A stretch of DNA of 60,596 nt. It comes from Clostridia bacterium (GTDB lineage: Bacteria > Bacillota > Clostridia > Christensenellales > UBA1242). Below, in pieces: positions 1-26,374 of the stretch. The position numbers and the translations under genes are program-made. The stretch is taken from assembly GCA_017468205.1 (NCBI GenBank), contig JAFUJK010000083.1, forward strand, positions 1 to 60,596. The letters are read 5' to 3'. Within the stretch, counting starts at the first letter, position 1. Each line of letters begins with the position of its first letter. The notes beneath the pieces are model-generated. The model was not told the origin of the DNA, made no database searches, and saw nothing but the letters and a program-made list of their open reading frames with translations.

Positions 1-100
1 CGGACGCCACACACGCACAAAACCCAGAAATAAAAAAAACGCGCCCGAGGAGAACCCCGAGCAACCAACCGACTACAAAGAGCCGGAGCGCAGCCAGCAA
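1..100 (-). other. Putative DGR variable region (adenine-depleted)
   Basis: Only 2 A in 100 nt of the coding strand, bounded by TGC TGG CTG CGC TCC GGC and GGC GTC CG. Confidence 0.5.
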
Positions 101-984
101 TATGATGTTGTACCGCTTCCTTCTATTGTTGTTGTATTAAATCCACGGTCAGCGGCTGTTAAGCCCCATAAACCGTTGTTTACTTGTGCCGTTGTAGACG
201 TAGTTTTTGGAGTTTTATTAAACACTTCTACACTACTTGGTATCCAAAAACTATCATTATATGGTGGATTTGATGTATTCCAGTTACTAGAATGTGTCCA
301 GCCCGTGTATACACCATTATAATCGTCTAGATTGTTATGGTGGTCGTAGTAACTTGTTGAATAAGTATGAACATCATCTGCTTGTGTTGTTTGCCAAGTT
401 GCATCTGCATTTTTTGGTGATTGGATAATACTACTAAAACTTTCTAATTTTCCGTTCAACTTTGTGTAAATATTGTTTGTTACATCGCGGAGTGTTGATT
501 TTGAGTAGTTGCTGTATGTATCATACGATGTGCCATTACCAAAACCTGTATTTTCTGTACCGCTGTTATTATAATATTCAACAACATAGTTTGTATTCAT
601 CCAAACCGTGAGATAACCATTCCATAGATATGTCGCCTGCCATAAAATCGGCTTTGACGTGTCCATTGAGCCAGTTGCGTCTACATAGTATCCCATTGGA
701 AAGATTATTGTGCTATCGCTTCCACTTGTACCACGTGAGGCTATGTTGTGCGCCGTGTATGTGCCTGTGTCGCTTGGATTATCCCAGTAACCAACTGCAT
801 CAAGAAATGCCTCCACAGCCGCAGGGTTTATATTTCCGTTAGTATTGTACAGATTTGATAAACTTGTGGTCGTCGTTGTGCTTGCGTTTGTATTCAAAAT
901 AACGTAAGCCCCCGTCCCCGCTAATAGCGAAAATCCTAGCACAATGCTGGCTATTATCACCGCCAGCCGTACTTTCTTTGTCAT
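73..984 (-). CDS. Membrane-anchored/secreted surface protein with DUF6273-like (CWLRSG) domain; putative DGR target, reading frame interrupted in its variable region
   Basis: N-terminal hydrophobic helix; motifs IIFPMG..WQATY..LTVWM, FWIPS, WGL, YCWLRSG shared with the paralog at 24436-26232; TAG three codons after WLRSG while GGC GTC CG (G-V-R) is still visible at 8-1 in a shifted frame. Confidence 0.7.
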   Translation of the reverse strand: MTKKVRLAVIIASIVLGFSLLAGTGAYVILNTNASTTTTTSLSNLYNTNGNINPAAVEAFLDAVGYWDNPSDTGTYTAHNIASRGTSGSDSTIIFPMGYYVDATGSMDTSKPILWQATYLWNGYLTVWMNTNYVVEYYNNSGTENTGFGNGTSYDTYSNYSKSTLRDVTNNIYTKLNGKLESFSSIIQSPKNADATWQTTQADDVHTYSTSYYDHHNNLDDYNGVYTGWTHSSNWNTSNPPYNDSFWIPSSVEVFNKTPKTTSTTAQVNNGLWGLTAADRGFNTTTIEGSGTTSYCWLRSGSL

Positions 985-1109
985 TTTTTATCTTATTTCA
1001 CTCCTTTTTTTTATGTACACTCCTATTTTATCATTTTTCTTACACAATTGTAAACCAAATAAGCCACCTTTTTACAAAAAATGCAAAAAAACACCCAAAA
1101 AGGGTGCTT

Positions 1110-1295
1110 TTAATTATCAATTTGTTGTTCGGTGGTTGTTGTGGTGGTCTGTGTAAATTGCGATTGAGTAGAATCGTCCCCATGCATAGGAAAGACGACA
1201 GCCATAGCGGTTATTACCATAGCAAAACCACATATAGCGGTAACAAACCTACTCCAAAAGCGCTTGTTACGCATACAAATAATTTCAAAAGCCAT
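1110..1295 (-). CDS. Small membrane protein (basic N-terminus, one TM helix, Thr/Gln-rich tail)
   Basis: 61-aa ORF, GGGGGA upstream, followed by a hairpin with T-tract near 1086-1110. Confidence 0.5.
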   Translation of the reverse strand: MAFEIICMRNKRFWSRFVTAICGFAMVITAMAVVFPMHGDDSTQSQFTQTTTTTTEQQIDN

Positions 1296-1428
1296 TGCAA
1301 ATTCCCCCCTAACAGCATATAAATTTTAACAAATAATTTTGTAAAAACAAAACAAATTAGGGCATTTTTTGCAATTTTTTTATTTTTTTTAACATAAAGC
1401 AACAAATTTTGATATTTTTTATACTTTT

Positions 1429-2403
1429 TTACTTCTTATTTCTAGGATTATTCAGCAATTTGAACGAATCATACAAATCTTGACGGAAATTTGAGTGCAT
1501 TTTCACTGCTTTATCAATTGGTGTAGCGATTATCTTATCATCGCGCAAACCGATAGCGAAATTAAACTTATTTTTATCAATCAATTCTATCGCAGAAACG
1601 CCGTAGCGAATAGCAAGCATTCTATCCTTGACGGTTGGGCTTCCGCCTCGTTGCATATAACCGAGCGCAACCGCTCTACATTCGTGATTAAAATCGCGTT
1701 GAATTTCACGAGAAAGTTGAAAAATGTCATATTGTTTTTCAGCGACAACAATCGTTGGACTTCTATTTCCATAATTAAGTTGGTCTTGAATAAACCTATA
1801 TATATGTGCCTTATCTAGCGGGTCTTCGGGAACAGCCACAATATCAGCCTCACTAGCCATAGCGCTATATAAAGCTATGTTACCTCCGTGTCTTCCCATA
1901 CATTCAATCAAACAAATTCGTTCATTAGCCTGCATAGTTTGGCGGATATTATCAATCATATTTGTAGCATTGTTTACAGCGCTATCAAAACCAATTGAGT
2001 CCGAAGTAGAATGCACATCATTATCAATCGTTGCTGGAATTGCTATTACATTCACACCTAAATCCACAAGCGATTTTGCGCCCAAGTAACTTCCGTTACC
2101 GCCGATAACAACAAGCGCCTTTACTCCCAATTTATTAAGATTTTGCACAGCGATTTTCTTATATTCAATATCTAAAAACTGCTCACAGCGGGCAGAATAA
2201 ATCATACTGCCACCGAGATTGAAAATATTTTTGACGTCATCTTTCGTTATTGTAAAATAGTCGTTATCAATTATACCCTTATAAGCGCGACGAAATGCGA
2301 CACACTCGTAGCCATAGTTATAAGACATTTCCACAACCGATTTCAAGCAAGCATTCATACCCGGGGCATCGCCACCGCTTGTAATTACTGCTATTTTTTC
2401 CAT
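1429..2403 (-). CDS. pfkA: ATP-dependent 6-phosphofructokinase
   Basis: IAVITSGGDAPGMNA, IGGNGS, PATIDND, MGRHGG, GYMQRGG motifs. Confidence 0.95.
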   Translation of the reverse strand: MEKIAVITSGGDAPGMNACLKSVVEMSYNYGYECVAFRRAYKGIIDNDYFTITKDDVKNIFNLGGSMIYSARCEQFLDIEYKKIAVQNLNKLGVKALVVIGGNGSYLGAKSLVDLGVNVIAIPATIDNDVHSTSDSIGFDSAVNNATNMIDNIRQTMQANERICLIECMGRHGGNIALYSAMASEADIVAVPEDPLDKAHIYRFIQDQLNYGNRSPTIVVAEKQYDIFQLSREIQRDFNHECRAVALGYMQRGGSPTVKDRMLAIRYGVSAIELIDKNKFNFAIGLRDDKIIATPIDKAVKMHSNFRQDLYDSFKLLNNPRNKK

Positions 2404-2438
2404 ATATTACTCCTTTTTTTGTTAGGTTTTTAAAAGGC

Positions 2439-2590
2439 GAGATTACCACGTTGCCCTCACGGGCGCCTCGCAATGACAAGTAATTATATTTGCTGAGATT
2501 TCTCCACTCGTTGCACTCGGTCGAAATGACACGCTATTATTCACGCGCAGGCTGTCATTTCGAGTAAGCGTAACGCATCGAGAAATCTCA
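2439..2590. repeat. Cluster of three REP-like GAGAT...AATGAC palindromic repeats
   Basis: Copies at 2439-2477, 2495-2530 and inverted at 2554-2589; the last two pair as gagatttctc..tcgaaatgac / gtcatttcga..gagaaatctc. Confidence 0.75.
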
Positions 2591-2621
2591 ACATTCAAAG
2601 CTCTTTTTCCTTTAATATTTT

Positions 2622-5600
2622 TTAGGCGACAACCATATTTTCAGGTTCGATAAAGCCAAAAAGTTCATTTTGCATTGCTGTACTACAATCGACCTTAAAT
2701 GGAAGCATAAAAGCCTTGCCCTGTTTGCAACACTTGACAACGACCTGATGTTCCCCTGGATAACGGGACAAAATGCTTATCACATTTTCCTTAACATTAG
2801 TATCGGTCAAATCGAATTTTAAATACAATTTCAGCACTTTTTTAGGTTCTTCAATAATTTTTGGTGCATCATCTTTTGGGGCAGACTTTTTATCATCCCA
2901 AAGAATGACATCTTCAGGCAAAACTATTGGTCTATCGCCCTCGCGAATGCTCAATTTGCCGACAAAGGTCATCATTGAATCGACATGTAGAATATGTTTA
3001 AATTTCTCATACACTTTAGGGAAAACGAGGACTTCAAAGGTGCCGAACAAGTCTTCAACGGTTACAACAGCCATTTCCTTGTTGCCGACCTTTGTGTTCA
3101 TACGTTTTACGCCTGTGAGTATACCACCGCATTTGACTTGCTGACCGTCCTCAACTCCCTCGTAGACTGAAATTTCCTCATCACCATCGTCACTTTGCAC
3201 GGTAACAGGAATAAGCAAATTACTAGTTAAATTGTATTCCTTATACTTATCGCGATATTGGTCAAGAATATGCCCACTGACATACACTCCCATAACTTCT
3301 TTTTCAAATTTCAAACGTTGTTGTGTATCATATTCAGGGATATATGGATACTGAACAACATTGAATGTTTTGTCCTCTTTTAGGACATTGTCAAACAATG
3401 TAAGTTGCCCTTGACTTTGCGAGCGCCTATCGCTTGAAACGCGCTCAACAATTTGCTCGTAAACGGCCATCATTTGGCTACGAGGCACTCCAAAGCAATC
3501 GAATGCGCCTGACAAAATCATTGCTTCAAGGAAACGCTTATTGTGAGCTTGTCCGTCCATACGAGAAATAAAGTCTTGCAAACTTTTGAACTCGCCGTTT
3601 CTTTCGCGCTCGCGAACCAACTCTTCAACAAGAGCAACGCCTACATTTTTAAGTCCGCCGAGACCGTAGCGAACGACTTTATCGTCCTCAACACTGAAAT
3701 AAGCCTGACTTTTGTTGACATCTGGCGGTAAAATCTTGATATCGTGCTGGCGCGCGAGTTCCATATAGTGAGTAAGTTCATCACTTTTTGTGATGCGGTT
3801 ATTCATAATAGCGGAATAAAATTCGGTTATGTGATAAACTTTCATATAAGCGGTTTGATAAGTAATGAAAGCATATGCAGCGGCGTGCGCCTTGTTGAAT
3901 GCATAACTACCAAATTTTTCCATTTGGCTCCACAATTTTTCCGCATCGTCGAGTTTCATTCCACGTTTCAGAACTCCGTCAATGCTTTTCAGCCCTTCTG
4001 GGTCGACCCAACCATTGATAAATCTTTCCTTTTCGATTGGAAGTTTATCGGCGAGTTTCTTACCCATAATCTTACGAACACCATCAGCCTGACCCATTGT
4101 ATAGCCCGCAAGAACCTGACAAAGTTTCATAACCTGCTCTTGGTAAACCATAACACCATATGTTACGCCAAGCACGTCCTTCATTTTTGGGTCTGGATAG
4201 ATAACGGACTCTGGATTTTTACGATTTTTGATATATGTAGGTATTTCGTCCATAGGACCCGGACGATACATTGCAAGGATAACGATAATTTCCTCGATGT
4301 TGACTGGTTTCATATCCTTTGCGAAGTTGGAGATTCCGCCACTTTCAAGTTGGAAAACACCGTCATTATCGCCTGAACCAATCAACTTGTAAACATTTGG
4401 GTCTGCGTACGAGAAGTCGCGTGAATAGAAATCTATTTCCTCGCCTGTTCTCTTTTTAACCGTTTTTAGCATCAAGTCAAGGTCGGTCAAGGTAATCAGC
4501 CCCAAGAAGTCCATTTTCAAAAGTCCGAGATGCTCGGTTTCGTTTTTGTCAAATTGTGTTGTTACCATATCGCCGTTTTTAGCCATTGGAACGTGGTCGG
4601 AAATATCATCACAGCATATAACGACACCCGCAGCGTGGATACTTGTATTTCGAGGCATATTTTCGAGTTTAATCGCGGTATCAACAATTTTCTGAACAAG
4701 CAAATCACTCTCGTACATTGCTTTTAGTTCAGGAACGACATACTGCGCATCTTCGGGTTTTTTGCTAACGCCATACAACTTTTCAATTGCAGGAGATTTT
4801 GGCATTTTTGTTGGAAACAATTTTGTCATTTTGTCGACTTCGGAATAAGGCATTTTAAGCACGCGTGCGACATCTTTAATTGCCGCTTTTGCCGCCATTG
4901 TACCAAAAGTAATTATCTGACTTACATTTGGCTCGCCATATTTTTCGATTACGTACTGGATTGCATCTTCACGTTTTACAGGGCAGAAGTCGATGTCGAA
5001 GTCGGGCGGGCTGACGCGCTCTGGGTTTAGGAAACGCTCGAACCAAAGGTCATATTTAAGCGGGTCGATAAGTGTAATTCCGATGGCATAAGCCAAGATA
5101 CTCGCGGCACCACTACCACGCCCTGGCCCTACTGGGACGTCGTGGTCGCGCGACCAGTTGATAAAGTCCCAAACGACAAGATAGTAGTCGACATATCCAC
5201 TTTTAATAAGTGTGTTCATTTCGAACTCGGCGCGCTCTTGAATTTCGGGAGTTATTTCGCCATAACGTTTGATTAATCCTTCATTAACAATTTTCCAGAG
5301 ATAATCGACATTGTTCATACCATTTGGGGCAGTAAACTTTGGATAGAACTGGCTTTTAAAGTCAAAATCGTAGTTACACTTTTCAGCAATTTCGAGAGTA
5401 TTATCAATACATTCGGGGTGAGCGGCGAAAATTGCACGCATTTCTTCCTCTGTTTTGAGGTAAAACTGGTCGCCGTCCATACGCATACGGTCAGGGTCGT
5501 CGATTGTTTTTCCAGTCTGAATACAGAGCATAATGTCCTGCATTTCCGAGTCCTCTTTGTTTAGGTAATGGACGTCGTTTGTTGCAATCGTTTTTACCCC

Positions 5601-6182
5601 CAATGCGTCTGCAAGTTTAAACAAATCGGGTAAAATTTGGCGTTGTTCTTGAATTCCGTGGTCCTGAACTTCGATATAAAAATCCCCTTCGGCAAACATA
5701 TCTCTGAGTCGTGAGCCAAACTTTACAGCATCATCAAAGCGACCTTGCAAAAGCAGTCTAGGGATATCGCCAGCGAGGCACGCGGAACTACAAATCAGCC
5801 CCCCGCTATATTTTTCGAGTGTGTTATAGTCGATTCGAGGTTTGTAATAAAATCCCTTTGTCCACGCGATGCTGTTAAGCTTACACAAATTGTGATAGCC
5901 TTCCTCATTTTTCGCCAAAATTATCAAGTGTGCAGGGTTTGGCTTTCCCTGTTTATAATATAGGTCATCAACAACGTAAAACTCGGTACCGATGATTGGC
6001 TTAATTCCGTTTGCCACACAAGCCTCGTAAAATTTTACAGCGCCGTACATATTTCCGTGGTCAGTTATTGCACATGCGGGCGCACCGCGTTCCTTCAATA
6101 TTTTTGTCAATTTTTTAATTCGAGCCGCACCATCGAGCAGACTATATTCAGTATGCAAGTGCAAGTGTACAAACTTTTCCAT
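2622..6182 (-). CDS. dnaE: DNA polymerase III alpha subunit
   Basis: FVHLHLHTEYSLLDGA PHP domain, GPGRGSGAAS, PPDFDIDF, KMDFLGL, YAFNKAH. Confidence 0.97.
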   Translation of the reverse strand: MEKFVHLHLHTEYSLLDGAARIKKLTKILKERGAPACAITDHGNMYGAVKFYEACVANGIKPIIGTEFYVVDDLYYKQGKPNPAHLIILAKNEEGYHNLCKLNSIAWTKGFYYKPRIDYNTLEKYSGGLICSSACLAGDIPRLLLQGRFDDAVKFGSRLRDMFAEGDFYIEVQDHGIQEQRQILPDLFKLADALGVKTIATNDVHYLNKEDSEMQDIMLCIQTGKTIDDPDRMRMDGDQFYLKTEEEMRAIFAAHPECIDNTLEIAEKCNYDFDFKSQFYPKFTAPNGMNNVDYLWKIVNEGLIKRYGEITPEIQERAEFEMNTLIKSGYVDYYLVVWDFINWSRDHDVPVGPGRGSGAASILAYAIGITLIDPLKYDLWFERFLNPERVSPPDFDIDFCPVKREDAIQYVIEKYGEPNVSQIITFGTMAAKAAIKDVARVLKMPYSEVDKMTKLFPTKMPKSPAIEKLYGVSKKPEDAQYVVPELKAMYESDLLVQKIVDTAIKLENMPRNTSIHAAGVVICCDDISDHVPMAKNGDMVTTQFDKNETEHLGLLKMDFLGLITLTDLDLMLKTVKKRTGEEIDFYSRDFSYADPNVYKLIGSGDNDGVFQLESGGISNFAKDMKPVNIEEIIVILAMYRPGPMDEIPTYIKNRKNPESVIYPDPKMKDVLGVTYGVMVYQEQVMKLCQVLAGYTMGQADGVRKIMGKKLADKLPIEKERFINGWVDPEGLKSIDGVLKRGMKLDDAEKLWSQMEKFGSYAFNKAHAAAYAFITYQTAYMKVYHITEFYSAIMNNRITKSDELTHYMELARQHDIKILPPDVNKSQAYFSVEDDKVVRYGLGGLKNVGVALVEELVRERERNGEFKSLQDFISRMDGQAHNKRFLEAMILSGAFDCFGVPRSQMMAVYEQIVERVSSDRRSQSQGQLTLFDNVLKEDKTFNVVQYPYIPEYDTQQRLKFEKEVMGVYVSGHILDQYRDKYKEYNLTSNLLIPVTVQSDDGDEEISVYEGVEDGQQVKCGGILTGVKRMNTKVGNKEMAVVTVEDLFGTFEVLVFPKVYEKFKHILHVDSMMTFVGKLSIREGDRPIVLPEDVILWDDKKSAPKDDAPKIIEEPKKVLKLYLKFDLTDTNVKENVISILSRYPGEHQVVVKCCKQGKAFMLPFKVDCSTAMQNELFGFIEPENMVVA

Positions 6183-7171
6183 TATTCTTCAATACCTTCT
6201 ACTTCGTTATTTTTTAATTCTTCTGCCATTTTAACAATTTTTCTTAATCTATGATTAACTCCGCTTTTTGTAAGTGGTGGCGACATAAGTTTAGCGAGAT
6301 TTTCGAGGGTTTCATTGGGGTTTGCAAGGCGCAACACGCACAAATCATAGAGAGTATCAGGCAAATTCTCCAAGCCCATTTTCTCCTCTAAATATTCGAT
6401 TGCGGAAATTTGTTTAAGGCTAGCATCAACCATTTTTCCCAAATTGCTATTCATACAATTAAGTTGGCGATTGAGTTGATTTCGCACTTCGCGCACAGCG
6501 AACTCGTTTTGCAATGTAAGCACAGCATTATTAGCACCAACGAGAGCAAGGACATCGCTCACAATTTCCGCTTCTTTTATGTAAACAACTGTCAATTTTT
6601 TGCGTTGCATTATCTTGCTGTAAATATCGTATTGCGACAAAATATGAGAAAAATCTCCCGCCATATTACGATTTAGAAACGCAAATTCGAGATGATAGCC
6701 ACCTGTATGTTTTTTAAGGTCGTTGATGTCCTTAATCACGATATTTGCACTAGCGCAACCCATAAAAACACCCTTAATAAACTGGCGCTGACAGCAATCA
6801 TTTTCAATTAGATGCCTTGAAATACTGCTGGCTATTTCGAGTTGTCCTGCATAATTTTCGCGCAAAATATAGCAATCTTTTAAAATCTGCTCACTTAGGT
6901 CTTGCGGAAAAATAACACTAAATTTTATAGCATGATTAGGGCGTTCCTGTCTATCTAATTTCAATCTATTTTCTTGGTTATAAAGCATTTTTACAAGACC
7001 GCAAACGCGCTTATAGAGAATATCAAGTTCAGTTACAAGAGTGATTGAAAAATCTTCGGCAATACGTCCGCAAGTACGAACAATACCTCCTAGTTCAGCG
7101 CGCGCGCAACATTCTTGCGTTGGCAACTCGCTTGTTGCTACTTCTGTTTTTGCTTCGTATGAAAATGACAT
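6182..7171 (-). CDS. whiA: DNA-binding protein WhiA
   Basis: MSFSYEAKTE start, GYHLEF, NRQLNCMNSNL, LTKSGVNHRLRKI. Confidence 0.93.
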   Translation of the reverse strand: MSFSYEAKTEVATSELPTQECCARAELGGIVRTCGRIAEDFSITLVTELDILYKRVCGLVKMLYNQENRLKLDRQERPNHAIKFSVIFPQDLSEQILKDCYILRENYAGQLEIASSISRHLIENDCCQRQFIKGVFMGCASANIVIKDINDLKKHTGGYHLEFAFLNRNMAGDFSHILSQYDIYSKIMQRKKLTVVYIKEAEIVSDVLALVGANNAVLTLQNEFAVREVRNQLNRQLNCMNSNLGKMVDASLKQISAIEYLEEKMGLENLPDTLYDLCVLRLANPNETLENLAKLMSPPLTKSGVNHRLRKIVKMAEELKNNEVEGIEE

Positions 7172-7222
7172 CGCAATTCTCCTTTCTATATATTATATAA
7201 CACAAATTGAATTTTGAAAAGC

Positions 7223-9883: not shown

Positions 9884-9909
9884 AAAAGCACCTCCCATAA
9901 CGTCATAAC

Positions 9910-9940
9910 AATGTATGCAGAGGTACTTTTGATTTATGCG
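9910..9940 (-). promoter_or_regulatory. Candidate sigma-E (mother-cell sporulation) promoter
   Basis: Minus strand ATA-N17-CATACATT matches the Bacillus sigE consensus ATa-N16-18-cATAcanT. Confidence 0.45.
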
Positions 9941-11760: not shown

Positions 11761-11766
11761 AATAAT

Positions 11767-15076: not shown

Positions 15077-15168
15077 AACAAAATATCCTGAATTTTTTAT
15101 TTCACTACATAACTATAATATCATTAAAATTCCCTTTTGTCAAAAGAAAAAATGAAAAAATTGGGACT

Positions 15169-16515: not shown

Positions 16516-16583
16516 ATTTTTAATCACCTCTATTTATATTATACTATAAAAACAGCAGTTTTTCAATAGAGAAATAAAAGTTT

Positions 16584-18860: not shown

Positions 18861-19021
18861 ATTTCACCACCCACAATAATTATAAAATTTTGTTTTATTT
18901 TTGACCTGCTTTTAGAATAGCGAAAAACTGACAATTTAAGATAATTTTGTTAAATTTTAAAAGTTTTTGTTTAATGTTTGCAAATCTATTTTTTTATGCT
19001 ATAATATGAAAGGAGGAATAT

Positions 19022-19810
19022 ATGAGTAAAGTAGTAGTTGTAACTGGCGCATCAAGTGGAATTGGACTCGCCATAGCAAAAAAATTTGTTGAAAATGGGC
19101 ATATTGTATATTCATTTTCTCGCGGAACACCAAATGATGATAACATAAAATTTATACACTGTGATGTAAGTAAGCGCGAAATTGTCGAGTCTGCATTTAA
19201 AGAATTAATTGAAAAAGAAGGAAAAATCGACATTTTAATCAACAATGCTGGTATGGGCATTAGTGGCGCAATGGAATTTGAACCACAGGCAGACATTCAA
19301 AAAATCATTGATGTCAATTTTCTAGGTGTTGTAAATTGCTGTTCCGTTGCGCTTCCCCATTTACGAGAAAGCAAAGGTACAATAATTAATATTTCTTCAA
19401 TGGCGGCGGAATTTACAATCGCTTTTCAAACAATGTATTCAGCAACAAAATCTGCAATTCTTGCTTTTAGTACTGCACTTAAAAATGAAGTTCGCCCTTT
19501 CGGAGTGCGTGTTAGTTGTGTGCTTCCTGGGGACATAAAAACAGGCTTTACCGCCAACCGAATAAAAAGTGATGCTGAAAAAACGCCTTATAGTGAACGC
19601 GAAAAACGCAGTGTTGAATATATGGAAAAATGCGAGCAAAACGGAATTGCTCCTGAAAAAATTGCAAGAAAAATTTGCAAAGTCGCAGAAAAAAAGAACC
19701 CACCAGTTAGTTTTACTTACGGCTTTTCGTATAAATTAATCAGGCTTGCAAACAGACTACTTCCTCAAAAACTCATTAACTACATTTTATATAGATTATA
19801 CGGAAAATAA
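19022..19810 (+). CDS. SDR family oxidoreductase
   Basis: TGASSGIG, NNAG, YSATK. Confidence 0.92.
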   Translation: MSKVVVVTGASSGIGLAIAKKFVENGHIVYSFSRGTPNDDNIKFIHCDVSKREIVESAFKELIEKEGKIDILINNAGMGISGAMEFEPQADIQKIIDVNFLGVVNCCSVALPHLRESKGTIINISSMAAEFTIAFQTMYSATKSAILAFSTALKNEVRPFGVRVSCVLPGDIKTGFTANRIKSDAEKTPYSEREKRSVEYMEKCEQNGIAPEKIARKICKVAEKKNPPVSFTYGFSYKLIRLANRLLPQKLINYILYRLYGK

Positions 19811-19821
19811 AGGATAAAACT

Positions 19822-20616
19822 ATGCGCGTATGTGTACTAGCCAGTGGCAGTAAAGGAAACTGCACATTTGTTGAAGGCGAAAACACCCGCATTTTAATAG
19901 ATGCGGGATTAAATAAAACAGAAATCGAAAATAGATTAAATACTATCGGCATTGAACCTAGTAGCATTGATAGTATACTCATTACCCACGAACATAGCGA
20001 CCACATCAAGGGCGTTGGTGCATTTGCGCGTGCACACAAATGCAAAATATTCGCCCACCCCGACACTTGGGGGGCAATGCAAGAAAAAGTTGGAACTATT
20101 CAAGCAGAAAAACGTGTTGGAATATTTGGAAGTAATTTTTACATAAATGAACTAGCTATCACAAGTTTTGACCTTTCTCACGACTCGGCGCATTGCCTTG
20201 GTTTTAGTGTTCACGAAGGCAACAAAAAAATCAGCACTGCAACAGACCTAGGTTTCATAAACGATACAATAATCAAACATTTAGCGGATAGTAGCCTCGT
20301 GATTTTGGAATCAAACCACGACATACCCCGTCTAATGAGCAACCCAAAATATCCACTTTACCTAAAACAGCGCATACTTTCAAATCGCGGACACCTTAAC
20401 AACAAAGATTCAGCCGAAGCAGTTCTAAAAATGCTGGGATATGGAATTCGCGGGTTAATTGCTGCACATTTGAGCGAAGAAAACAACACTCCTGACCTTG
20501 TTATGAAAGCACTCAATGATATTGTAGCACGTCAAGGTGGCGAACTTGCAAAAGAAATTTATGTTGACATTGCAAAGCAACACAAAGTTGGAAATATTTA
20601 TAGAATAAAATCATAA
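19822..20616 (+). CDS. MBL-fold metallo-hydrolase (YycJ/WalJ-like)
   Basis: LASGSKGN, THEHSDH, ESNHD, HLSEENN. Confidence 0.9.
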   Translation: MRVCVLASGSKGNCTFVEGENTRILIDAGLNKTEIENRLNTIGIEPSSIDSILITHEHSDHIKGVGAFARAHKCKIFAHPDTWGAMQEKVGTIQAEKRVGIFGSNFYINELAITSFDLSHDSAHCLGFSVHEGNKKISTATDLGFINDTIIKHLADSSLVILESNHDIPRLMSNPKYPLYLKQRILSNRGHLNNKDSAEAVLKMLGYGIRGLIAAHLSEENNTPDLVMKALNDIVARQGGELAKEIYVDIAKQHKVGNIYRIKS

Positions 20617-20711
20617 ACGCACAAAGGTGTATTTTTATTTTTTTAACAAATAATGTATATTTTTATTCCTTACACACAAATTATTTATAGAAAATTTGAG
20701 GAGTACAAAAT

Positions 20712-21131
20712 ATGGCAACCAAAAAATCAACAAATACTAAAACAAAGGCATCTACCGCTAAATCAAGCACAGCAAAAGCCGAAACAAAAACAAAAGAACC
20801 TCTTGTAAGTACGAAACGCAAAGTAGGCATAGCAATTTACTTTACTTTCATTATCACACTTGCCTTATCCTTTGGCGCACAAGTTTGGATGATGGAAACA
20901 TTCAATCCACCTGCAACAAACGAACCCAATTTAGCCAGCAACGAGCAAACACAATCGCCTAACACCACACAAGAAAGTCCACAAGTTCAAAATGATGAAA
21001 GCAACATTGAGCGCGCTTTGCTTGAAAATGAGCAACAAGAAGAGTTTATTGTTCCTGCTCCAAATCAATTTAATTTCTACGACCAAAATGAAAATTTAAT
21101 TGCACAACAAAATGCGCCTCAATCAGAATAA
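20712..21131 (+). CDS. Hypothetical single-pass membrane protein
   Basis: GAGGAG RBS; Lys/Thr-rich N-terminus, TM helix, Gln/Glu/Asn-rich tail. Confidence 0.7.
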   Translation: MATKKSTNTKTKASTAKSSTAKAETKTKEPLVSTKRKVGIAIYFTFIITLALSFGAQVWMMETFNPPATNEPNLASNEQTQSPNTTQESPQVQNDESNIERALLENEQQEEFIVPAPNQFNFYDQNENLIAQQNAPQSE

Positions 21132-21135
21132 AAGA

Positions 21136-21167
21136 AAAACATATTAGCCTTAACTAATATGTTTTTT
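21136..21167. terminator. Bidirectional terminator
   Basis: aaaaacatattag-ccttaa-ctaatatgttttt. Confidence 0.75.
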
Positions 21168-21170
21168 ATT

Positions 21171-24161
21171 TTATGAATTTTGTACTAATGTTGGATATTG
21201 GTCTTGAACAAAGTTCCAATATTTAGAGTCAAATCCACGGTTAGTAAATGTTGACATCTTCTTACAATTTTCGTCACTAGTCCAACCATCGTCCGGTGAA
21301 GCCCAGTCGATAACGAAGTTATATGAACTTGTCAAACGTGTTCCGCCGTGCTTTGAGTTTACGATACATTTCTCAACCACACCCGCAACCTTGTTGTCTT
21401 CACCAAAGATTGCAGTAAATGGGTTGTGTACTGAATATACTTCACTCTTTGTTTCAGCATAAGCCTTGCTTCCTGAAATTGAATAGTCAAATTCAGAGTT
21501 AGCAAAACAGTATGCAACGCGACCATATCTGTCTTTGTTTTGAATTTCAATATCAACGGCAAATCCAGCCATAACTTTACCAGCAAGTGTACATTCTGCG
21601 TAGCAGTTTACGATAGAACCAGCCACAATCACACTTGCAAGCCCACCTACCTTTTCACCGCCAATAAAACCAGTTGCGTATGAGGTTGAAACCAAATTCT
21701 CAGAGCCCTCGCCCTCTAACCAGCCAACCAAACCACCAGCATAATAACCGCTGATTTCCATTGAGGTTGCGCTACAATCAGAAATCAAAGTGCCATCTCC
21801 ACTGTAACCAGTAATACCACCAACATATGATTTATCACCTGTACTTACTGAAGCATTTATCTTACCAGTAAAATTACATTTTGATATTGAACCATCGGAA
21901 CTTACACCTACAATACCGCCAGCAGTTGCATCAGTATCACTTTGCGCAAAAATTTCATAAGCATACTTGCCATCGCTTGTAAGTCCACCATCATAATTAG
22001 AATTTACAATCTTAGAATTACCGCCCAATTCACCAACAATTCCACCAACAAAGTTGGTTTCCTTTGATTGAACTTTAATATTCAACGATGCAGTACAATC
22101 TTGAATCAATGCATCTTTTCCTGTTTTACCAGCGATACCACCAGCATAGATGCGATTATCTGCGTTAATGTTAATACCCTCAAAGTTTGTGTCTGCATTT
22201 GAACGCACTACACAATCAATGATTTTACCATAGTTCAATCCAGCAATAGCACCTACCCAAGCATAAACATCATCACTAGCAACCTTTGTTATTTTAACGC
22301 CCTCAATAATTAGGTTTTCTGCAACGCCTTCGCTACCAATCATACCAAAGAAACCATTAAATCTATTTTCAGTGGTGATTACTAGGTTGCGAATTACAGG
22401 CATAGAGCCGTCAGCTTTTGCTACTCCATACATTTGACCATTAAATGGTGTAAGGGAATCGCCGATTGGAGTCCATTCCTCACCAGTCAAATCAATGTCG
22501 CTGTCGATTTTGTACTTATTGTTGTAAATACCATCGTCAGCAAGGTCAGCAGCAAGTTCGTCAAGCAATTTTTGTTTTCCAGAAATAACAACCACGTCAA
22601 ATTCGTCATAAATTCCGTTGTTTACTGGAACAGCATTGTCTTTAATAAATGGATAACCATTGTTAACTGAAGGGTCGATAGACCAAAGATTATCAAAGTC
22701 CCATGTTACCATTTCGCCGTTCACATCATAACCAATGTAAGCAACATTTTCGCTAGGCATATTTGCTTCTTTTACTGCGCTAAATTGCTCTGCATTTGGT
22801 TTTTTCTTCAATGTTTCAGCAGTAACGCCATAAGCAAGATATGCAGTTGTAACGTCATCAAAATCATAAATACCAGTTGTTACTTTTTCGCTCTTTTGAT
22901 AGAAGTTACCCAAAATACGGTTGTAATTCTTGTATGCTTCGTCTGGTTTAAGCTCTGGCTGAACAGAATTCAATCCATTCAAGTTAAAAGCAATCAAGCC
23001 AGCCACAAAATCTTCGCCTTTCATCTCGTTTTTAATAACTGCATAACAATTAATAACCGCACTCTTTTGCGAATCGTTTGTTTCAGCTGTCATATTAACT
23101 AAACTTGCAGTAATTCCACCAGCAATACTTGATTTTGAAGCTTCTGGTGTCGCAAATGTAGCATCTACAACACCACAATTACTAATCATACCAGCCCTAA
23201 CTACAGAAGAGATACCACCCATACACGCAGTTGTATTAGCTGATAAAATTAAGTTAGAAACGGTTGTATAAAGCACTTTCGCAAGATATGCTCCGCTTGT
23301 GCCATCAAGAATACCAACAACACCACCAATATAAGCAGCTTTTTCAATTGTAGCATTTGCATTAACTACAGAATTTGAAACAGTAACAAAACTTACTTCA
23401 CCCATGTTATATGCAGCAAGTGGCGCAACATTATCATAATTTCCATCAAGTTTAAATCCAGTAAGATTCAAGTTTGAAACTTTTGCACCAGTTTTGATTG
23501 TACCAAAAAGTCCAGCATTTTTCAAAGTACTAGGTGCAACAACTTCGCCCTCGCTCAACATAGCAGAACCTTCTTGTAACAAATGAAGGTTACTAATAGT
23601 GTGCTTACCACCATTGTAAGTACCACTAAAACCATCGTCGCCACCGATTGGAGTCCACGCAGTTTGCTTCTCAACACTCATATCAATATCAGCAACTTGT
23701 TGATAGTTAGCGGTCAATGGGTGCGCTGGACCGATTGATTTCAAGTCTTGATAGTCGCGAATATAGAATGGGTTTTCAGTAGACCCAGAACCAACGTAAA
23801 CTGCAACATTTACGTTCTTGTAATCCTCGTTTGTGGTAACGAGTTGAATTGTTGTATTACCGCCAGCAAGAGCCTCAAATCTCCAAGATTCAACGTTCTT
23901 GTCGTCAGCAAACTTTTCTTTAAATTTAACAATTTCCTCATTCATACTAACAAGGCTGTACTGGTCAGCAGAAGGATTCTCACGAGTTACAGTTACTACA
24001 AAAGTTTCGCCTACGTTGACATATTTAGTAGTAGATTGACCATTTTCGCCCCCCAAGCTAAACACTTCGTTGTTGAGCATAAAGTAGTAAACAGACAACC
24101 CGACACTAATGCCGACAATTACGATAAGCAAAAAGATTAAAAATCTATTGAGCCATTTCAT
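21171..24161 (-). CDS. Large surface protein with GLUG-type beta-helix repeats (two tandem modules)
   Basis: N-terminal TM anchor; GSGSTENPFYI; repeated DID..WTPIG..F.G, V/AGGIVG motifs; two W.F..W..YP module ends. Confidence 0.8.
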   Translation of the reverse strand: MKWLNRFLIFLLIVIVGISVGLSVYYFMLNNEVFSLGGENGQSTTKYVNVGETFVVTVTRENPSADQYSLVSMNEEIVKFKEKFADDKNVESWRFEALAGGNTTIQLVTTNEDYKNVNVAVYVGSGSTENPFYIRDYQDLKSIGPAHPLTANYQQVADIDMSVEKQTAWTPIGGDDGFSGTYNGGKHTISNLHLLQEGSAMLSEGEVVAPSTLKNAGLFGTIKTGAKVSNLNLTGFKLDGNYDNVAPLAAYNMGEVSFVTVSNSVVNANATIEKAAYIGGVVGILDGTSGAYLAKVLYTTVSNLILSANTTACMGGISSVVRAGMISNCGVVDATFATPEASKSSIAGGITASLVNMTAETNDSQKSAVINCYAVIKNEMKGEDFVAGLIAFNLNGLNSVQPELKPDEAYKNYNRILGNFYQKSEKVTTGIYDFDDVTTAYLAYGVTAETLKKKPNAEQFSAVKEANMPSENVAYIGYDVNGEMVTWDFDNLWSIDPSVNNGYPFIKDNAVPVNNGIYDEFDVVVISGKQKLLDELAADLADDGIYNNKYKIDSDIDLTGEEWTPIGDSLTPFNGQMYGVAKADGSMPVIRNLVITTENRFNGFFGMIGSEGVAENLIIEGVKITKVASDDVYAWVGAIAGLNYGKIIDCVVRSNADTNFEGININADNRIYAGGIAGKTGKDALIQDCTASLNIKVQSKETNFVGGIVGELGGNSKIVNSNYDGGLTSDGKYAYEIFAQSDTDATAGGIVGVSSDGSISKCNFTGKINASVSTGDKSYVGGITGYSGDGTLISDCSATSMEISGYYAGGLVGWLEGEGSENLVSTSYATGFIGGEKVGGLASVIVAGSIVNCYAECTLAGKVMAGFAVDIEIQNKDRYGRVAYCFANSEFDYSISGSKAYAETKSEVYSVHNPFTAIFGEDNKVAGVVEKCIVNSKHGGTRLTSSYNFVIDWASPDDGWTSDENCKKMSTFTNRGFDSKYWNFVQDQYPTLVQNS

Positions 24162-24332
24162 AAGTAATTACCTCTCTATTTATTCTTCTAGTAATTCATT
24201 ATATTATACCATACTTTAAATCATTTGTCAATATTGATATAAAATAAAAACAAAAACTATTAATTTTTCTAGTTTTTGCTTAAATTCTTTATTATTATGA
24301 TTATTATATGATAACAAGTATCTTTATTTACT

Positions 24333-24426
24333 GAGATTTCTCGACCGCGCTTGTAATGACAGCCCCCGTGTCATTATGAGGAGCGCAACGACGCGATAAT
24401 CTCGGCGACAAAGTCGCCACCACGGA
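24333..24426. repeat. Inverted pair of REP-like GAGAT...AATGAC repeats plus small hairpin
   Basis: 24333-24360 gagatttctc..taatgac; 24370-24403 gtcattatg..aatctc; then ggcgac-aaa-gtcgcc. Confidence 0.7.
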
Positions 24427-24435
24427 GAAAATATT

Positions 24436-26374
24436 TTACGTCAACTTATCCGTATTATTTGTTTCAGTATTTACATTTGAACTTATTTGTGAAAAATTGG
24501 CAATTATAAGTTTTCCAAATGCTTGCTCTTTGGTTAGCTGCATGCTCAAACTTGTTCCGAACGAATTTCCATCGCTATCCGTCCAGCCGTCAAATTGATA
24601 ACCCGCGTATGCAACCGCAATGCACGTAATCGTGTCGCTTTCCTCACTTAAATCCGAGCCTGTTATTCTGGCTTCCCCGCCATTGGTGGCTTGAATGGCG
24701 ACGCCCTCAATACTTGTGCCCGCGCTATTTTTTAAAACTGGCTTTGTATTAATAAAAGTAAGATAAATACCAAAATCCGCACTGATGTAATCAATTTGAA
24801 GAACAAGCATATTGCCATTTTCATTGATTTTGTACTCAATGCTAGCCGAACTTCCCGAATTTTCAAGCAATCCCGTTCGCGTTTCAAAAACTTGCGTTTC
24901 TCCACTTGCAACCGAAATTGCGCTGAAATAATATCCGCTTGGCGCGGTCAAATAGTATGTAAGTGTGTAGTTTTGGTCGCGTGAGAAGTCGCTAGTAAAA
25001 GTTTGCGAGCCTGTGATAGTTGCAGTAAAATACTTTATGAAATATGCAGTATAAGTCTGCGCACTGCTCGCAGTTATCGTCAGAGGATTGCTCTCATATG
25101 TTCCCCCTCCGCTGTCCTGCCAGTATGCAAATATACTACCATTTATTGGATTGGCTGTTAATGAAACTAATGTGCCACTTTCATATGTTCCCCCTCCGCT
25201 TACTGAACCATAAGAAGAATTAGAAGTGTTTGCTGTGATTAATACTCCAGTTTTGAAATACGCCTTGCAAGTGATAGTCCCTGTTACCGCAAAAGAATAT
25301 GGGTTACTTTCCACACGAGTTGAGCCAATCATCCAGTAGTCAAATAGATATCCTGCATTTGGCGTTGCTATAATTGTTGTGATGGTGTTATATTTTATCG
25401 CCCCACCGCCACTTGTCGTACCATATGAGGAGTTGTTTGTTGAAAGCGTTACATTAAATTCAACACAACTAGCTAGACTATTCAATGAAATGTGAGCGGC
25501 AGGACGCACACCGCGACTAAAGAAAGTACTGCTGCGGGAAACGGAGCCAGAGGAGGATATTAGTAACGCGACGTCGTAGTCGCCAGATTCGCCAGAACGC
25601 AGCCAACAATAGTCTGTAGACATTTCCCTATCTGTGTCATCTAGCCCCCAAAAAGAGAAAGTTTCATAATAACTTGGAAGCCAGAATTTATCTGTAACTG
25701 TTGATAATACACCTAAACTACTAATATAGTCATCAGTGTATTGCGTATCTTGTGCTGTCTTATAGCTACTACTCATACTACATGGCGAAACGGTGATTGA
25801 GTTAAGTACTGGATAACTGCTCGCGCGAGTTGTGAAATAATTTTGCACTGTCGTGCGTATATCTGAACTACTATAGTCATTGTTTGAACTAGCAAATGTG
25901 GCAGTTGTGTAGTAATCACACATCCACACGGTAATAATGTCTGTGTTGTTTGGGTCGCGATACACCACTTGCCAAGCGCGACCAGCCATTGTAAAAACTA
26001 TCGGAGTTCCGCCGTCCAAAGTTCTCACTGTTCCAGTTTTCGAGCCCAATTTGCTAATTAAGGAATTATATACTGTTTCATTTACTATACTGCTTCCACT
26101 AGTGGATAATGTTCCAAGTGATGTGTAACTTTTTAATGCCGAAACGCCGTTTAAATCATTTAAAATCAAAAAAATGCTTCCGCCTGTTATAGCGATAAAA
26201 AGAAGGATTAAGGACAGAATTAGGGCAATCACTTTGCCTCTTTTTTCTTTATTTTTAGGGTTGTTTAAATTGTCTGAAAAGCCTTTATTTAAGCCATTTT
26301 CAGCAATTTTTTCGCTATTTAGCGCCCCCCCCCCCCTGCGGAGTTTTTGGGGTGGATAAGTGGTCTTTTTTCAT
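24436..26374 (-). CDS. Surface protein: TM anchor, DUF6273-like domain with putative DGR variable region, InlB-B-like repeats; 5' end frameshifted at a G12 tract
   Basis: GGAGG-N8-ATG at 26374; that frame stops after the G12 tract, main 598-aa ORF is 26232-24436; repeats ATPNAGYLFDYW, ANPINGSIFAYW, AYAGYQFDGW. Confidence 0.75.
25498..25605 (-). other. Putative DGR variable region
   Basis: WLRSG-26 codons-GVRPA; 21 of 26 codons end in C/T (14 in C), none encodes Asn, as expected for randomised AAY codons. Confidence 0.65.
26325..26336 (-). repeat. G12 homopolymer (candidate phase-variation tract)
   Basis: 12 C on the plus strand, inside the 5' coding region; G11 or G14 joins ATG 26374 to the main ORF. 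Confidence 0.75.

What the first reader, a model, noticed from the sequence alone, without database searches (positions are those of the whole stretch)
73..26374. Dispersed family of surface proteins apparently diversified in trans, with no RT in 60 kb
Seen: two paralogs about 24 kb apart (73-984, 24436-26374) share a TM anchor and the motifs I.F.M..WQ..Y..TVWM..YS.S..R..FW.PS..E.F..WGL...DR..YCWLRSG. Both switch abruptly to a DGR-like nucleotide composition right after WLRSG. Both sit alone among housekeeping genes, with no RT, avd or template nearby. Their fixed flanks differ at non-A positions (CGC TCC..GGC GTC versus CGT TCT..GGT GTG). Inference: a chromosome-wide repertoire of remote targets served by more than one template. 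Combined with poly-G switching, this would be an antigenic-variation or adhesin-diversification system in an uncultured clostridial lineage. This is the best candidate for an undescribed system in the window.
Basis: partly seen in the sequence, partly recalled or inferred. Interest (0 to 1): 0.88.

Follow-up and report, generated by a model that had tools for sequence, protein, structure and literature searches.

The report
Split retroelement with a gene-silencing template
The two genes belong to a family of about 30 surface proteins in a tiny gut bacterium that a retroelement elsewhere in the genome rewrites, using one mutagenic template and a second, adenine-poor template that seems to switch genes off.

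Summary
The window is one contig (C76) of a 1.23-Mb gut Clostridia MAG.

The family has about 30 genes (about 5% of the genome). Its domain is DUF6273, a C-type-lectin-like fold. A split diversity-generating retroelement (DGR) serves it:
- avd-RT lies on contig C82.
- An adenine-rich template, TR1, lies on C90.
- Seventeen dispersed variable regions match TR1. In 13 ungapped ones, A sites changed at 219/416 positions and non-A sites at 40/1066.

A second template RNA gene, TR2 (C11, upstream of ftsH), is unexpected. Its 74-nt core has 2 adenines, an in-frame TAG, and a hairpin followed by T8. Exact copies replace the variable region in three genes, including window paralog 1 (window 1-100). 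TR2 and its copies recur, species-specifically, in three sister species. All 7 cassette-bearing genes with known 5' ends lack the poly-G leader, and all 8 checked keep an open 3' reading frame.

Paralog 2 is a lineage-specific insertion. Its G12 leader is out of frame, and its variable region has drifted from TR1 at 17/82 non-A sites.

Retrohoming of TR2 as an OFF switch is my inference. I found nothing in print on adenine-poor templates.

The parts
73..984 (-). Paralog 1. This 303-aa ORF has a TM anchor and a DUF6273-type domain, and is cut short by TAG (73-75) three codons after WLRSG. It has no poly-G leader.
   Evidence: (family profile E 1.6e-50, profile positions 2-219 only).
83..99 (-). 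5' constant flank TGCTGGCTGCGCTCCGG, shared by TR1, TR2 and the TR1-type variable regions.
9..82 (-). Core of the 'X cassette': 74 nt with 2 A, 100% identical to the core of template TR2 (C11:15763-15836). It replaces the variable region.
   Evidence: 100/100 identity to C11, C64 and C37; composition.
32..63 (-). Terminator-like element inside the cassette: a 9-pair hairpin (63->42) followed by T8 (39->32).
   Evidence: scan on the identical C11 copy; the same hairpin is in the MFE of the TR2 of three species. Coordinates were transferred by hand from L012.
1..8 (-). Start of the 3' constant flank (GGCGTCCG...). The contig ends here, inside the repeat.
   Evidence: C76 and C37 end with the same 141 nt.
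24436..26232 (-). Paralog 2, 598 aa from GTG. It has a TM anchor, a DUF6273-type domain (residues ~40-250) and 3 InlB B-repeat (Flg_new_2) domains. The frame is open up to 26370.
26325..26336 (-). G12 tract in the conserved 5' leader. The ATG at 26372-26374 reads into TAG with 12 G; with 11 or 14 G it reads into the long ORF.
25495..25608 (-). Drifted variable region of paralog 2. It aligns without gaps to TR1, with 24/32 A sites and 17/82 non-A sites different.
24323..24435 (-). GC-rich ~110-nt dispersed repeat directly after the stop codon of paralog 2. About 20 copies in the genome lie mostly behind family genes.
   Evidence: 78-94% identical copies on many contigs; fold z -1.5, not remarkable.

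Best explanation
The two genes belong to a family of about 30 membrane-anchored surface proteins. The ligand-binding DUF6273 (C-type-lectin-like) domain of these proteins is rewritten by a split, trans-acting DGR.

Components. One locus (contig C82) encodes Avd and the reverse transcriptase. Two separate RNA genes supply templates. Each has the same constant flanks, the same TR-type 3' end (…GCCGCT-TCACTCC) and the same three-hairpin downstream RNA.

TR1 (C90) is adenine-rich. It yields mutagenised cDNA that replaces the variable region of at least 17 dispersed genes.

TR2 (C11, upstream of ftsH) is nearly adenine-free, so its copy is invariant. It carries an in-frame TAG three codons after WLRSG, a length that shifts the frame, and a hairpin plus U-tract. 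Installed in a target, it truncates the protein but keeps both homing flanks, so TR1 could later restore an open, newly varied gene.

Window paralog 1 is in this TR2-written OFF state. Genes with a poly-G leader (window paralog 2) use slipped-strand frame switching instead. In the assembly paralog 2 is in an OFF frame (G12). Its variable region has drifted and is no longer homogenised by any template found.

What is shown:
- the parts of the system;
- the A-specific pattern of differences;
- the identity of the TR2 copies;
- their conservation across four species.

What is inferred:
- that TR2 copies are made by the RT;
- that the state is reversible;
- that it serves as a switch;
- that poly-G length varies between cells.
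For: DGR core.
- The 390-aa RT has RVT_1. Its best solved-structure match is 8ub7_A, a 328-aa reverse transcriptase (E 2e-29), with GVPIGNQTSQ aligned to GIPIGSLTSQ.
- The overlapping upstream 164-aa ORF matches Pfam bAvd at 55 bits against a cut-off of 40.
- The other RT, on C67, scores 377.7 bits against NCBIfam Drt2 (cut-off 390), a defence RT.

TR1.
- It is non-coding and has 32 A in 114 nt.
- Seventeen of the 29 sites that carry the 3' motif are TR1-type.
- In the 13 ungapped ones, A sites changed at 219/416 positions and non-A sites at 40/1066.

TR2.
- It is intergenic and shares both flanks and the GAGATGAAGGG core with TR1.
- The downstream RNA has 18 predicted pairs, 10 of them with compensatory changes, across 7 templates of 3 species.
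- The covariance model hits exactly 2 loci in G000.
- A count is 2/74, 3/77 and 4/75 in three species, against a genomic A frequency of 0.32 (p 1e-8 to 1e-10).
- TAG stays in frame in all four species while neighbouring codons differ.
- The hairpin plus T-run is conserved.
- TR2 is syntenic with ftsH in G000 and G002.

Copies of TR2.
- G000 has 3 gene copies, 100% identical (C64, C76, C37).
- G002 has 2 copies identical to its own TR2.
- G012 has 2 copies differing from its TR2 at one site, which is an A in TR2. They share TR2's T in place of G just before the 3' flank.
- G001 has 2-3 copies.
- The copy tracts end where TR1-derived tracts end.

Signs of a switch.
- 7/7 cassette-bearing genes with known 5' ends lack poly-G. 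Within G000 this is 3/8 genes without poly-G against 0/16 with it.
- 8/8 cassette-bearing genes keep an open frame after the cassette: 332-426 aa in the 6 that are complete, and 2 run off their contig.
- The cassette's unitig depth is about 3.9x single-copy depth in run X1 (34.9 against 8.9). This matches the 4 assembled copies.

Poly-G. There are 28 leader tracts of G9-G15. After each, two of three frames stop at once. Of 25 parsed, 7 are ON, 14 OFF and 4 unknown.
Against: - No direct evidence of activity. Only contigs of public runs were available, so no read-level variation in variable regions, cassette occupancy or poly-G length could be seen.
- Adenines in TR2 are kept in the gene copies at 18/20 positions, while TR1-derived regions keep only 47% (p about 1e-4 if the copies are independent). 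That fits a non-mutagenic route such as recombination, selection for the TAG, or shared descent of copies. I cannot tell which.
- A terminator-like hairpin inside TR2 should also cut TR2's own transcript short of the downstream RNA needed for priming.
- Neither template is next to the RT, unlike nearly all described DGRs. It is assumed, not shown, that this RT uses them.
- In G001 (75% complete) neither the RT nor any template was found.
- Whether contig C24 is the other allele of paralog 1 or an unassembled paralog is unresolved.
- Kin species are not independent samples.
Confidence: 0.62

Rival explanations
1. TR2 is a degenerate template with no adaptive role. The DGR machinery still homes it, and the stop-bearing copies are collateral damage that a redundant family tolerates.
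For: - The cassette gives no readable protein segment.
- Copies are few, 2-3 per genome.
- The element is confined to 4 of 401 family genomes searched.
- An internal terminator-like hairpin would hamper TR2's own use as a template.
Against: - In a 36% G+C genome a neutral 75-nt stretch should regain adenines. Instead it has 1-4 A in four species.
- TAG is kept in frame while its neighbours change.
- The hairpin plus T-run, the flanks and the downstream RNA are all conserved, with compensatory pairs.
- TR2 is syntenic in G000 and G002.
- The 3' parts of 8/8 hit genes are still open.
- The cassette avoids the poly-G subfamily.
Confidence: 0.2
2. The cassette spreads among paralogs by homologous recombination or gene conversion through the conserved flanks, not by reverse transcription. 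TR2 is then merely one more carrier of the cassette.
For: - Adenines are retained at 18/20 positions in the copies.
- The two G012 gene copies share the same A-to-G difference from TR2, as if one was copied from the other.
Against: - The shared flanks are only about 17-20 nt on the 5' side and about 18-27 nt on the 3' side.
- The copy tract ends exactly where TR1-derived tracts end, at ...CCTGCCGCT.
- TR2 has the full template anatomy, including the TR-type 3' end and the structured downstream RNA.
- Gene-specific sequence on either side is not co-converted.
Confidence: 0.13
3. One reading: paralog 2 is an active remote target of a further mutagenic template that was not seen.
For: - The A-site bias persists (24/32 against 17/82).
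- The 3' flank CGTCCTGCCGCTCACAT is nearly intact.
- The genome is 94.6% complete in 92 contigs, so a template could be missing.
Against: - No A-rich template fits. There are 17-27 non-A mismatches to all four found in three species.
- The RNA model finds only two templates in G000.
- The other six drifted family regions differ from each other too, so nothing homogenises them.
- Non-A divergence equals that of the rest of the gene.
Confidence: 0.07
4. The cassette at the end of the window is an assembly chimera created by the shared repeat flanks.
For: - The contig ends inside the repeat.
- C76 and C37 share their last 141 nt.
- Only 41 nt separate paralog-specific sequence from the cassette.
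Against: - Mid-contig copies inside genes exist in G000 (C64) and in three other MAGs from other studies.
- In run X3 a 446-nt contig covers window 110->1 and runs on for 336 nt.
- Depth fits four copies.
Confidence: 0.04

Closest known systems
Treponema denticola DGR with remote targets (TvpA, PDB 2y3c)
   Same: - A cellular DGR.
- One template serves several dispersed surface-protein genes with C-lectin-type variable domains.
- TvpA appears among the fold matches (Z 4.7).
   Different: - Seven non-adjacent targets was the maximum in the survey of 372 DGRs (PMC5758913, passages read). Here there are 17 TR1-type regions.
- In that survey the template usually lies directly beside the RT. Here both templates lie on other contigs.
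- No second adenine-poor template is described there, in the passages I read.
Bordetella phage BPP-1 DGR (the paradigm)
   Same: - An Avd plus RT pair, with an RT of the same type (best PDB match 8ub7_A; that this entry is the BPP-1 enzyme is my recollection).
- A-specific differences between template and variable region.
- The template's 3' end differs from the target's 3' end.
- A structured RNA lies downstream of the template.
   Different: - The core is split.
- There are many chromosomal targets.
- There are two templates, one of which is non-mutagenic by composition.
DUF6273 targets of phage DGRs ('tentaclins') and the DUF6273 N-terminal domain of Thomasclavelia ramosa IgA peptidase (9qa6)
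   Same: - The same domain. The best fold match of the paralog 2 model is 9qa6_A residues 32-308 (Z 9.7). PMC12402451 calls residues 31-322 DUF6273.
- PMC10743442 reports DUF6273 as a C-lectin-like DGR target.
   Different: - Here the proteins are cellular and membrane-anchored.
- They carry InlB B-repeat tails.
- They form a family of about 30 paralogs.
Thiohalocapsa PB-PSB1 DGR loci acting in trans (PMC10907252)
   Same: Incomplete loci and remote targets whose variable regions match a template elsewhere at all non-A sites (passages read).
   Different: - That organism has nine loci, 15 targets and conflict-system sensors.
- No stop-bearing template and no homopolymer switch appear in the passages read.
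Homopolymeric-tract contingency loci (Campylobacter, Helicobacter, Mycoplasma)
   Same: A G-tract sits early in the coding sequence. Stops lie in the two wrong frames. Many paralogous surface genes carry it.
   Different: - Here it is combined with a DGR in the same genes.
- A search for the two topics together found no paper.
- Tract-length variation was not observed here.
Silent-cassette gene conversion systems (pilS/pilE, vls) - analogy recalled, not tested
   Same: A non-expressed donor copy overwrites a segment of expressed surface-protein genes.
   Different: - The donor here has the anatomy of a DGR template RNA.
- It writes a stop rather than a new epitope.

Membership tests
Diversity-generating retroelement (system level) | Reverse transcriptase of the DGR type | tested here: met
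   - RVT_1 at 53.7 bits.
- The best solved-structure match is 8ub7_A, E 2e-29, with IGxxxSQ aligned. The motif's diagnostic value is recalled, not looked up.
- No NCBIfam model of other RT classes reaches its cut-off.
Diversity-generating retroelement (system level) | Accessory protein Avd next to the RT | tested here: met
   - Pfam bAvd at 55 bits against a cut-off of 40.
- NCBIfam DivGenRetAVD at 41 bits, below its cut-off of 80.
- The ORF overlaps the RT start.
Diversity-generating retroelement (system level) | Template/variable repeat pair differing almost only at template adenines | tested here: met
   - 17 regions qualify.
- In 13 ungapped ones, A sites changed at 219/416 and non-A sites at 40/1066.
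Diversity-generating retroelement (system level) | Template directly adjacent to the RT gene (usual architecture) | tested here: not met
   - No template lies within L001.
- TR1 is on C90 and TR2 on C11, 14 kb or more from either end of its contig.
- The same separation is seen in G002.
- The assemblies are fragmented, so true distances are unknown.
Diversity-generating retroelement (system level) | 3' end of the target differs from 3' end of the template (directionality) | tested here: met
   - Targets read ...GCCGCT-CACATCTCA.
- Both templates read ...GCCGCT-TCACTCC.
- The function of this difference was not tested.
Diversity-generating retroelement (system level) | Ongoing diversification within a population | not testable with these tools
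   - Only contigs of runs were served.
- Of 184 contig ends, 22 fall in family features. Paralog repeats also explain this.
Active DGR target (window paralog 2) | Only A-to-N differences from a template | tested here: not met
   17/82 non-A mismatches to TR1, and 17-27 to the templates of relatives.
Copy of template TR2 (window paralog 1 tail) | Identity to TR2 between the constant flanks | tested here: met
   100/100 identical to C11:15745-15844.
Pfam DUF6273 (PF19789) | Profile match above the gathering score | tested here: not met
   - Paralog 2 scores 15.4 bits against a cut-off of 23.5. Paralog 1 has no hit.
- Relatives 65% identical or less carry a precomputed PF19789.
Pfam DUF6273 (PF19789) | Fold of a solved DUF6273 domain | tested here: met
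   - The model has pLDDT 76.6.
- 9qa6_A residues 32-308 match at Z 9.7, rmsd 3.8, 171 aligned residues, well above the next rows at Z 5.0.
- The domain label comes from PMC12402451.
C-type lectin fold of DGR targets | Structural similarity to CLec domains | tested here: inconclusive
   - Most rows from rank 3 to 50 are C-type lectin-like domains, but at Z 3-5 (Lcl 8q4e 5.0, TvpA 2y3c 4.7).
- Foldseek gave no match with E <= 0.001.
Homopolymeric-tract phase variation | Tract inside the 5' coding region with stops in the alternative frames | tested here: met
   - 28 leaders carry G9-G15.
- ...CGCTAAATAGCG follows the tract.
Homopolymeric-tract phase variation | Tract length differs between cells | not testable with these tools
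   No raw reads were served.

The most novel reading that the evidence does not exclude
A DGR has evolved a second, dedicated, adenine-free template whose faithful cDNA writes a stop codon and a terminator into any family member while preserving the homing flanks. Retrohoming would then work as a reversible, templated ON/OFF switch, with re-opening by the mutagenic template giving a new variant each time. This switch is used by exactly those paralogs that lack the poly-G switch. The retroelement core and its two template RNA genes are unlinked chromosomal loci that serve about 5% of a 1.2-Mb genome.
Probability: 0.4. Interest if true: 0.88.

Novelty: new variant of a known kind. Interest (0 to 1): 0.8.

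Why it matters
DGRs are known as devices that diversify a protein, and every described template is adenine-rich because adenines are what is mutated. A conserved template that avoids adenines and carries a stop plus a terminator-like hairpin would show something new: the same machinery can deliver a fixed payload and regulate genes, not only vary them.

The system also shows that the RT/Avd core and the template RNAs can be unlinked genes. Surveys that look for templates only near the RT would miss such systems.

It is also a dense case of surface variation in a very small, uncultured gut genome. It combines about 30 paralogs, poly-G frame switching, mutagenic retrohoming and the cassette. That makes it a good natural system for asking how many variants a cell exposes at a time. 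An invariant-copy template may also interest those who adapt DGRs as targeted editing tools.

Tried and rejected
- BLASTN of the RT locus against the genome to find the template found only an unrelated 40-65-nt dispersed repeat after the RT. The template was found with flank words instead.
- Rfam gave nothing above threshold in the window, and only chance-level rows at the template loci and the RT locus.
- My first ON/OFF count used a wrong frame rule for leaders with ...CGCTTAAAT. It was replaced.
- I considered that contigs C22/C85/C11 and C26/C32 were alternative variable-region alleles of one locus. I rejected this because they differ upstream of the variable region too, so they are paralogs or strain variants.
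- Whether C24 is the alternative allele of paralog 1 is unresolved. C24:1-73 is identical to window 153->81, and that 73-nt stretch occurs nowhere else in the assembly.
- Read laying on window 1-1500 gave only short Logan contigs. It did not show which variable region follows paralog 1's own upstream sequence. Holes in cover mean nothing.
- A scan of metagenome contigs for the cassette core found 0 stretches.
- The covariance model R1 recovered only its own 7 training loci. It hit G000 (2), G002 (2) and G012 (3) in the genus, and 0 of 60 other family genomes under stricter filters.
- Foldseek against PDB gave no match at E <= 0.001. VIA-align gave the DUF6273 match.
- Orthologs of paralog 2 were sought in five relatives, and only the flanking mazF-like gene matched.
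- I did not use complex prediction, the protein-atlas search or the search of protein representatives.

Literature.
- Searches found no paper on adenine-free templates or on DGR combined with homopolymer switching.
- I read only passages of PMC5758913, PMC10907252, PMC10743442, PMC12402451 and bioRxiv 10.1101/2024.11.15.621889.
- Supplements were closed. Supplementary Table S1 of PMC5758913 could list multi-template or unlinked architectures that I could not see.
- The large metagenomic DGR survey of 2021 was not read (recalled only), so 17 targets per template is not claimed as a record.

Full report
**What is in the window.**
Paralog 1 (73-984, minus strand, 303 aa) and paralog 2 (24436-26232, minus strand, 598 aa from a GTG) are both real ORFs. 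BLASTP aligns only their last 58 residues before WLRSG (E 3e-6). Paralog 1 stops at TAG three codons after WLRSG. The 100 bases from there to the contig end contain almost no adenine. Upstream of paralog 2 lie an ATG (26374) and a G12 tract (26325-26336). With 12 G the ATG frame runs into TAG; with 11 or 14 G it would run into the long ORF. Pfam finds three InlB B-repeat domains and a sub-threshold DUF6273 match in paralog 2, and nothing in paralog 1.

**The genome has a DGR, but not here.**
The window is the whole of contig C76 of a 1.23-Mb assembly (92 contigs, 94.6% complete). Two reverse transcriptases exist. One, on C67, is near the cut-off of the NCBIfam Drt2 defence model (377.7 bits against 390). 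The other, on C82, is a 390-aa RT. It is overlapped at its start by a 164-aa ORF that passes Pfam's bAvd model (55 bits against 40). Its best solved relative is 8ub7_A (E 2e-29), with the IGxxxSQ segment aligned.

No template lies beside this RT. Searching for the flank words found the template on another contig. It is C90, minus strand, about 751->638, non-coding, with 32 A in 114 nt, mostly in AAC/AAT codons. I call it TR1.

**The family is a set of remote targets.**
Twenty-nine sites carry the 3' flank word:
- 1 is TR1 itself;
- 17 are variable regions that differ from TR1 almost only at A sites;
- 7 are drifted family regions;
- 2 are copies of a second element, described below;
- 2 are unrelated.

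In the 13 TR1-type regions without indels, A sites changed at 219/416 positions and non-A sites at 40/1066. A family profile hits 36 ORF pieces, about 30 genes and 61.7 kb, which is 5% of the genome. The survey of 372 DGRs reports at most seven non-adjacent targets and says templates usually lie directly beside the RT (PMC5758913, passages).

**The domain.**
A homology search found 28 relatives, many with a precomputed PF19789. An AlphaFold model of paralog 2 residues 1-265 (pLDDT 76.6) matches 9qa6_A residues 32-308 at Z 9.7. The next matches are mostly C-type-lectin-like domains at Z 3-5, including the DGR target TvpA. PMC12402451 labels residues 31-322 of that peptidase DUF6273. PMC10743442 describes DUF6273 as a C-lectin-like DGR target in phages.

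**A second, adenine-poor template.**
The tail of paralog 1 is 100% identical to three other places: C64 (mid-contig, inside a gene), the end of C37 (inside a gene) and C11:15745-15844. The C11 copy is intergenic, between a small gene and ftsH. It has three features of a template:
- both constant flanks;
- the template-type 3' end (...GCCGCT-TCACTCC, where targets have ...GCCGCT-CACATCTCA);
- the same downstream RNA as TR1, with a GAGATGAAGGG core and three hairpins.

Across seven templates of three species, 10 of the 18 predicted pairs show compensatory changes. A covariance model built from them hits exactly two loci in this genome. I call the C11 element TR2 and its 74-nt core the cassette.

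The cassette has 2 A, 13 C, 24 G and 35 T. It carries TAG in the gene's frame and is 5 nt shorter than the TR1 core. It also contains a 9-pair hairpin followed by T8, which the terminator scan picks up.

**Conservation.**
The RT has close relatives in G002 (85%) and G012 (79%) of the same genus. Each of those genomes has an A-rich template and a TR2.

| Genome | A in TR2 core | Gene copies of the cassette | Relation to own TR2 |
|---|---|---|---|
| G000 | 2/74 | 3 (C64, C76, C37) | identical |
| G002 | 3/77 | 2 | identical |
| G012 | 4/75 | 2 | differ at one site, an A in TR2; share TR2's T before the 3' flank |
| G001 (75% complete) | TR2 not found (copies: 1 A in 77-78) | 2-3 | not applicable; no RT or template found |

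Further points:
- The hairpin plus T-run and the in-frame TAG are kept in all species, while adjacent codons differ.
- The cassettes differ between species.
- TR2 sits upstream of ftsH in both G000 and G002, and TR1 is syntenic between G000 and G012.
- The cassette core occurs in 4 of 401 genomes of the family and nowhere in the reversed-pattern control.
- With a genomic A frequency of 0.32, so few adenines have a probability of 1e-8 to 1e-10 per species. The species are kin, so these values are not independent.

**Signs that the cassette is a switch rather than debris.**
First, all 7 cassette-bearing genes whose 5' ends are available (3 in G000, 2 in G001, 1 in G002, 1 in G012) start directly with a Lys-rich signal anchor and have no G-tract within 1.5 kb. 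Within G000 the cassette occupies 3 of 8 family genes without a poly-G leader and 0 of 16 with one. By hand this gives Fisher p = 56/2024 = 0.028. One search computed 0.024, using 17 in place of 16.

Second, in all 8 cassette-bearing genes examined the reading frame after the cassette is still open. It runs 332-426 aa in the six that are complete, and the other two run off their contigs.

Third, in the run that best holds the window, the cassette's unitig has 3.9 times the depth of the adjacent single-copy contig (34.9 against 8.9). This matches the four assembled copies. A second run gives 33.2 against 6.3.

**What does not fit.**
The gene copies keep TR2's adenines at 18 of 20 positions, whereas TR1-derived regions keep 47%. 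This could mean copying by recombination, selection for the stop, or descent of copies from one another. It is the main reason I keep the RT-mediated route as an inference.

A terminator-like hairpin inside TR2 should also limit the full-length TR2 RNA that priming from the downstream region would need.

No read-level data were available. All 15 runs found were served as contigs, and a scan of JGI metagenome contigs found nothing. Diversification, cassette turnover and G-tract slippage are therefore unobserved.

Contig C24 begins with 73 nt that occur elsewhere only in paralog 1 (window 153->81). It continues with a TR1-type region (13 A-site changes, 0 non-A changes, one 6-nt insertion) and a 442-aa open frame. 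It may be the other allele of paralog 1 or a paralog whose 5' part did not assemble. Similar-looking cases turned out to be paralogs.

**Paralog 2.**
In five relatives the order acpS, mazF-like gene, GLUG-motif gene is kept with nothing in between, so paralog 2 is an insertion peculiar to this species. Its nearest paralog is 79% identical up to the variable region. Its variable region aligns to TR1 without gaps. A sites differ at 24/32 positions and non-A sites at 17/82 (p 1.3e-7). It fits no better to the A-rich templates of G002 or G012, with 17-27 non-A mismatches. It looks like a former target that is no longer overwritten.

**The poly-G leader.**
The genome has 38 G/C tracts of 8 or more, and 28 of them sit in the conserved leader ATG..(TT/AT)(A/T)TCCAC..CCGCA-G(9-15)-CGCT(T)AAATAGC. 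After the tract, two of three frames hit a stop at once. Of 25 leaders parsed, 7 are in frame, 14 are out of frame (paralog 2 among them) and 4 are cut by contig ends. Tract lengths in a short-read assembly are consensus values and may be wrong.

**Verdict.**
It is wrong about the state of the two window genes.

The system is a DGR by four of its five testable defining features. It departs from the usual one, adjacency of template and RT. Its distinctive feature is the conserved adenine-poor, stop-bearing template. I found no description of such a template in the searches.

I rate it a new variant of a known kind, with high interest. The key mechanism, retrohoming of TR2 as a reversible OFF switch, I hold at roughly even odds.

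Noticed in passing
window 24323-24435 (-), and about 20 other loci in G000: A GC-rich ~110-nt repeat follows the stop codon of paralog 2 directly. It recurs at 78-94% identity on many contigs, often behind family genes. It has no Rfam match, and its fold is not unusual (z -1.5).
   Followed up: partly
window 26640-26700 (-); G000:C90 about 215-330: A GC-rich palindromic stretch (…GCACGCGTTCGCGTGC…GCGCAATGCGC…) lies upstream of the promoter region of paralog 2. It resembles, by eye, the one between TR1's RNA and the next family gene on C90. These stretches may be terminators or cassette boundaries of the mobile family genes.
   Followed up: no
L001 2453-2522 (G000:C82, just after the RT stop); window 54425-54464: A 40-65-nt repeat directly after the RT gene recurs at 10 or more loci (77-97% identical), one of them in the window. 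It is unrelated to the template.
   Followed up: no
G000:C67:9459-10832 (L002): The second reverse transcriptase of the genome scores 377.7 bits against NCBIfam Drt2 (cut-off 390), so it is a defence RT and not part of the DGR. It lies on the same contig as two family genes.
   Followed up: partly
G012:C70:464-585 and G012:C55:12079-12205: This relative has two different adenine-rich templates (34-35 and 32 A) besides its adenine-poor one. The number of templates therefore varies within the clade.
   Followed up: partly
G000:C24:45-174, C85:173-302, C62:23071-23200, C74:980-1109: Four TR1-type variable regions carry in-frame insertions of 3-9 nt relative to TR1, although their substitutions are otherwise only at A sites. 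This could be slippage during cDNA synthesis or an older template version.
   Followed up: no
G000:C13:5624-7143: Three G8-G11 tracts lie within 1.5 kb in genes unrelated to the family leader. G11 tracts also sit in apparent promoter regions on C49:28936 and C88:52279. Homopolymer switching may reach beyond this family.
   Followed up: no
window 21171-24161 (-) and 26730-27074 (-): Paralog 2 is flanked by a 996-aa GLUG-motif protein with an N-terminal anchor and by a 114-aa gene that looks like a MazF/PemK toxin (label from reading the sequence, not tested). The two are adjacent in five relatives.
   Followed up: partly
G000:C64:2019-3419 (-): The part of the C64 gene behind the cassette is a 467-aa open frame, stop to stop. 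It begins inside the cassette in the frame of ...GVRPAAHIS, so the cassette is open in that second frame.
   Followed up: partly
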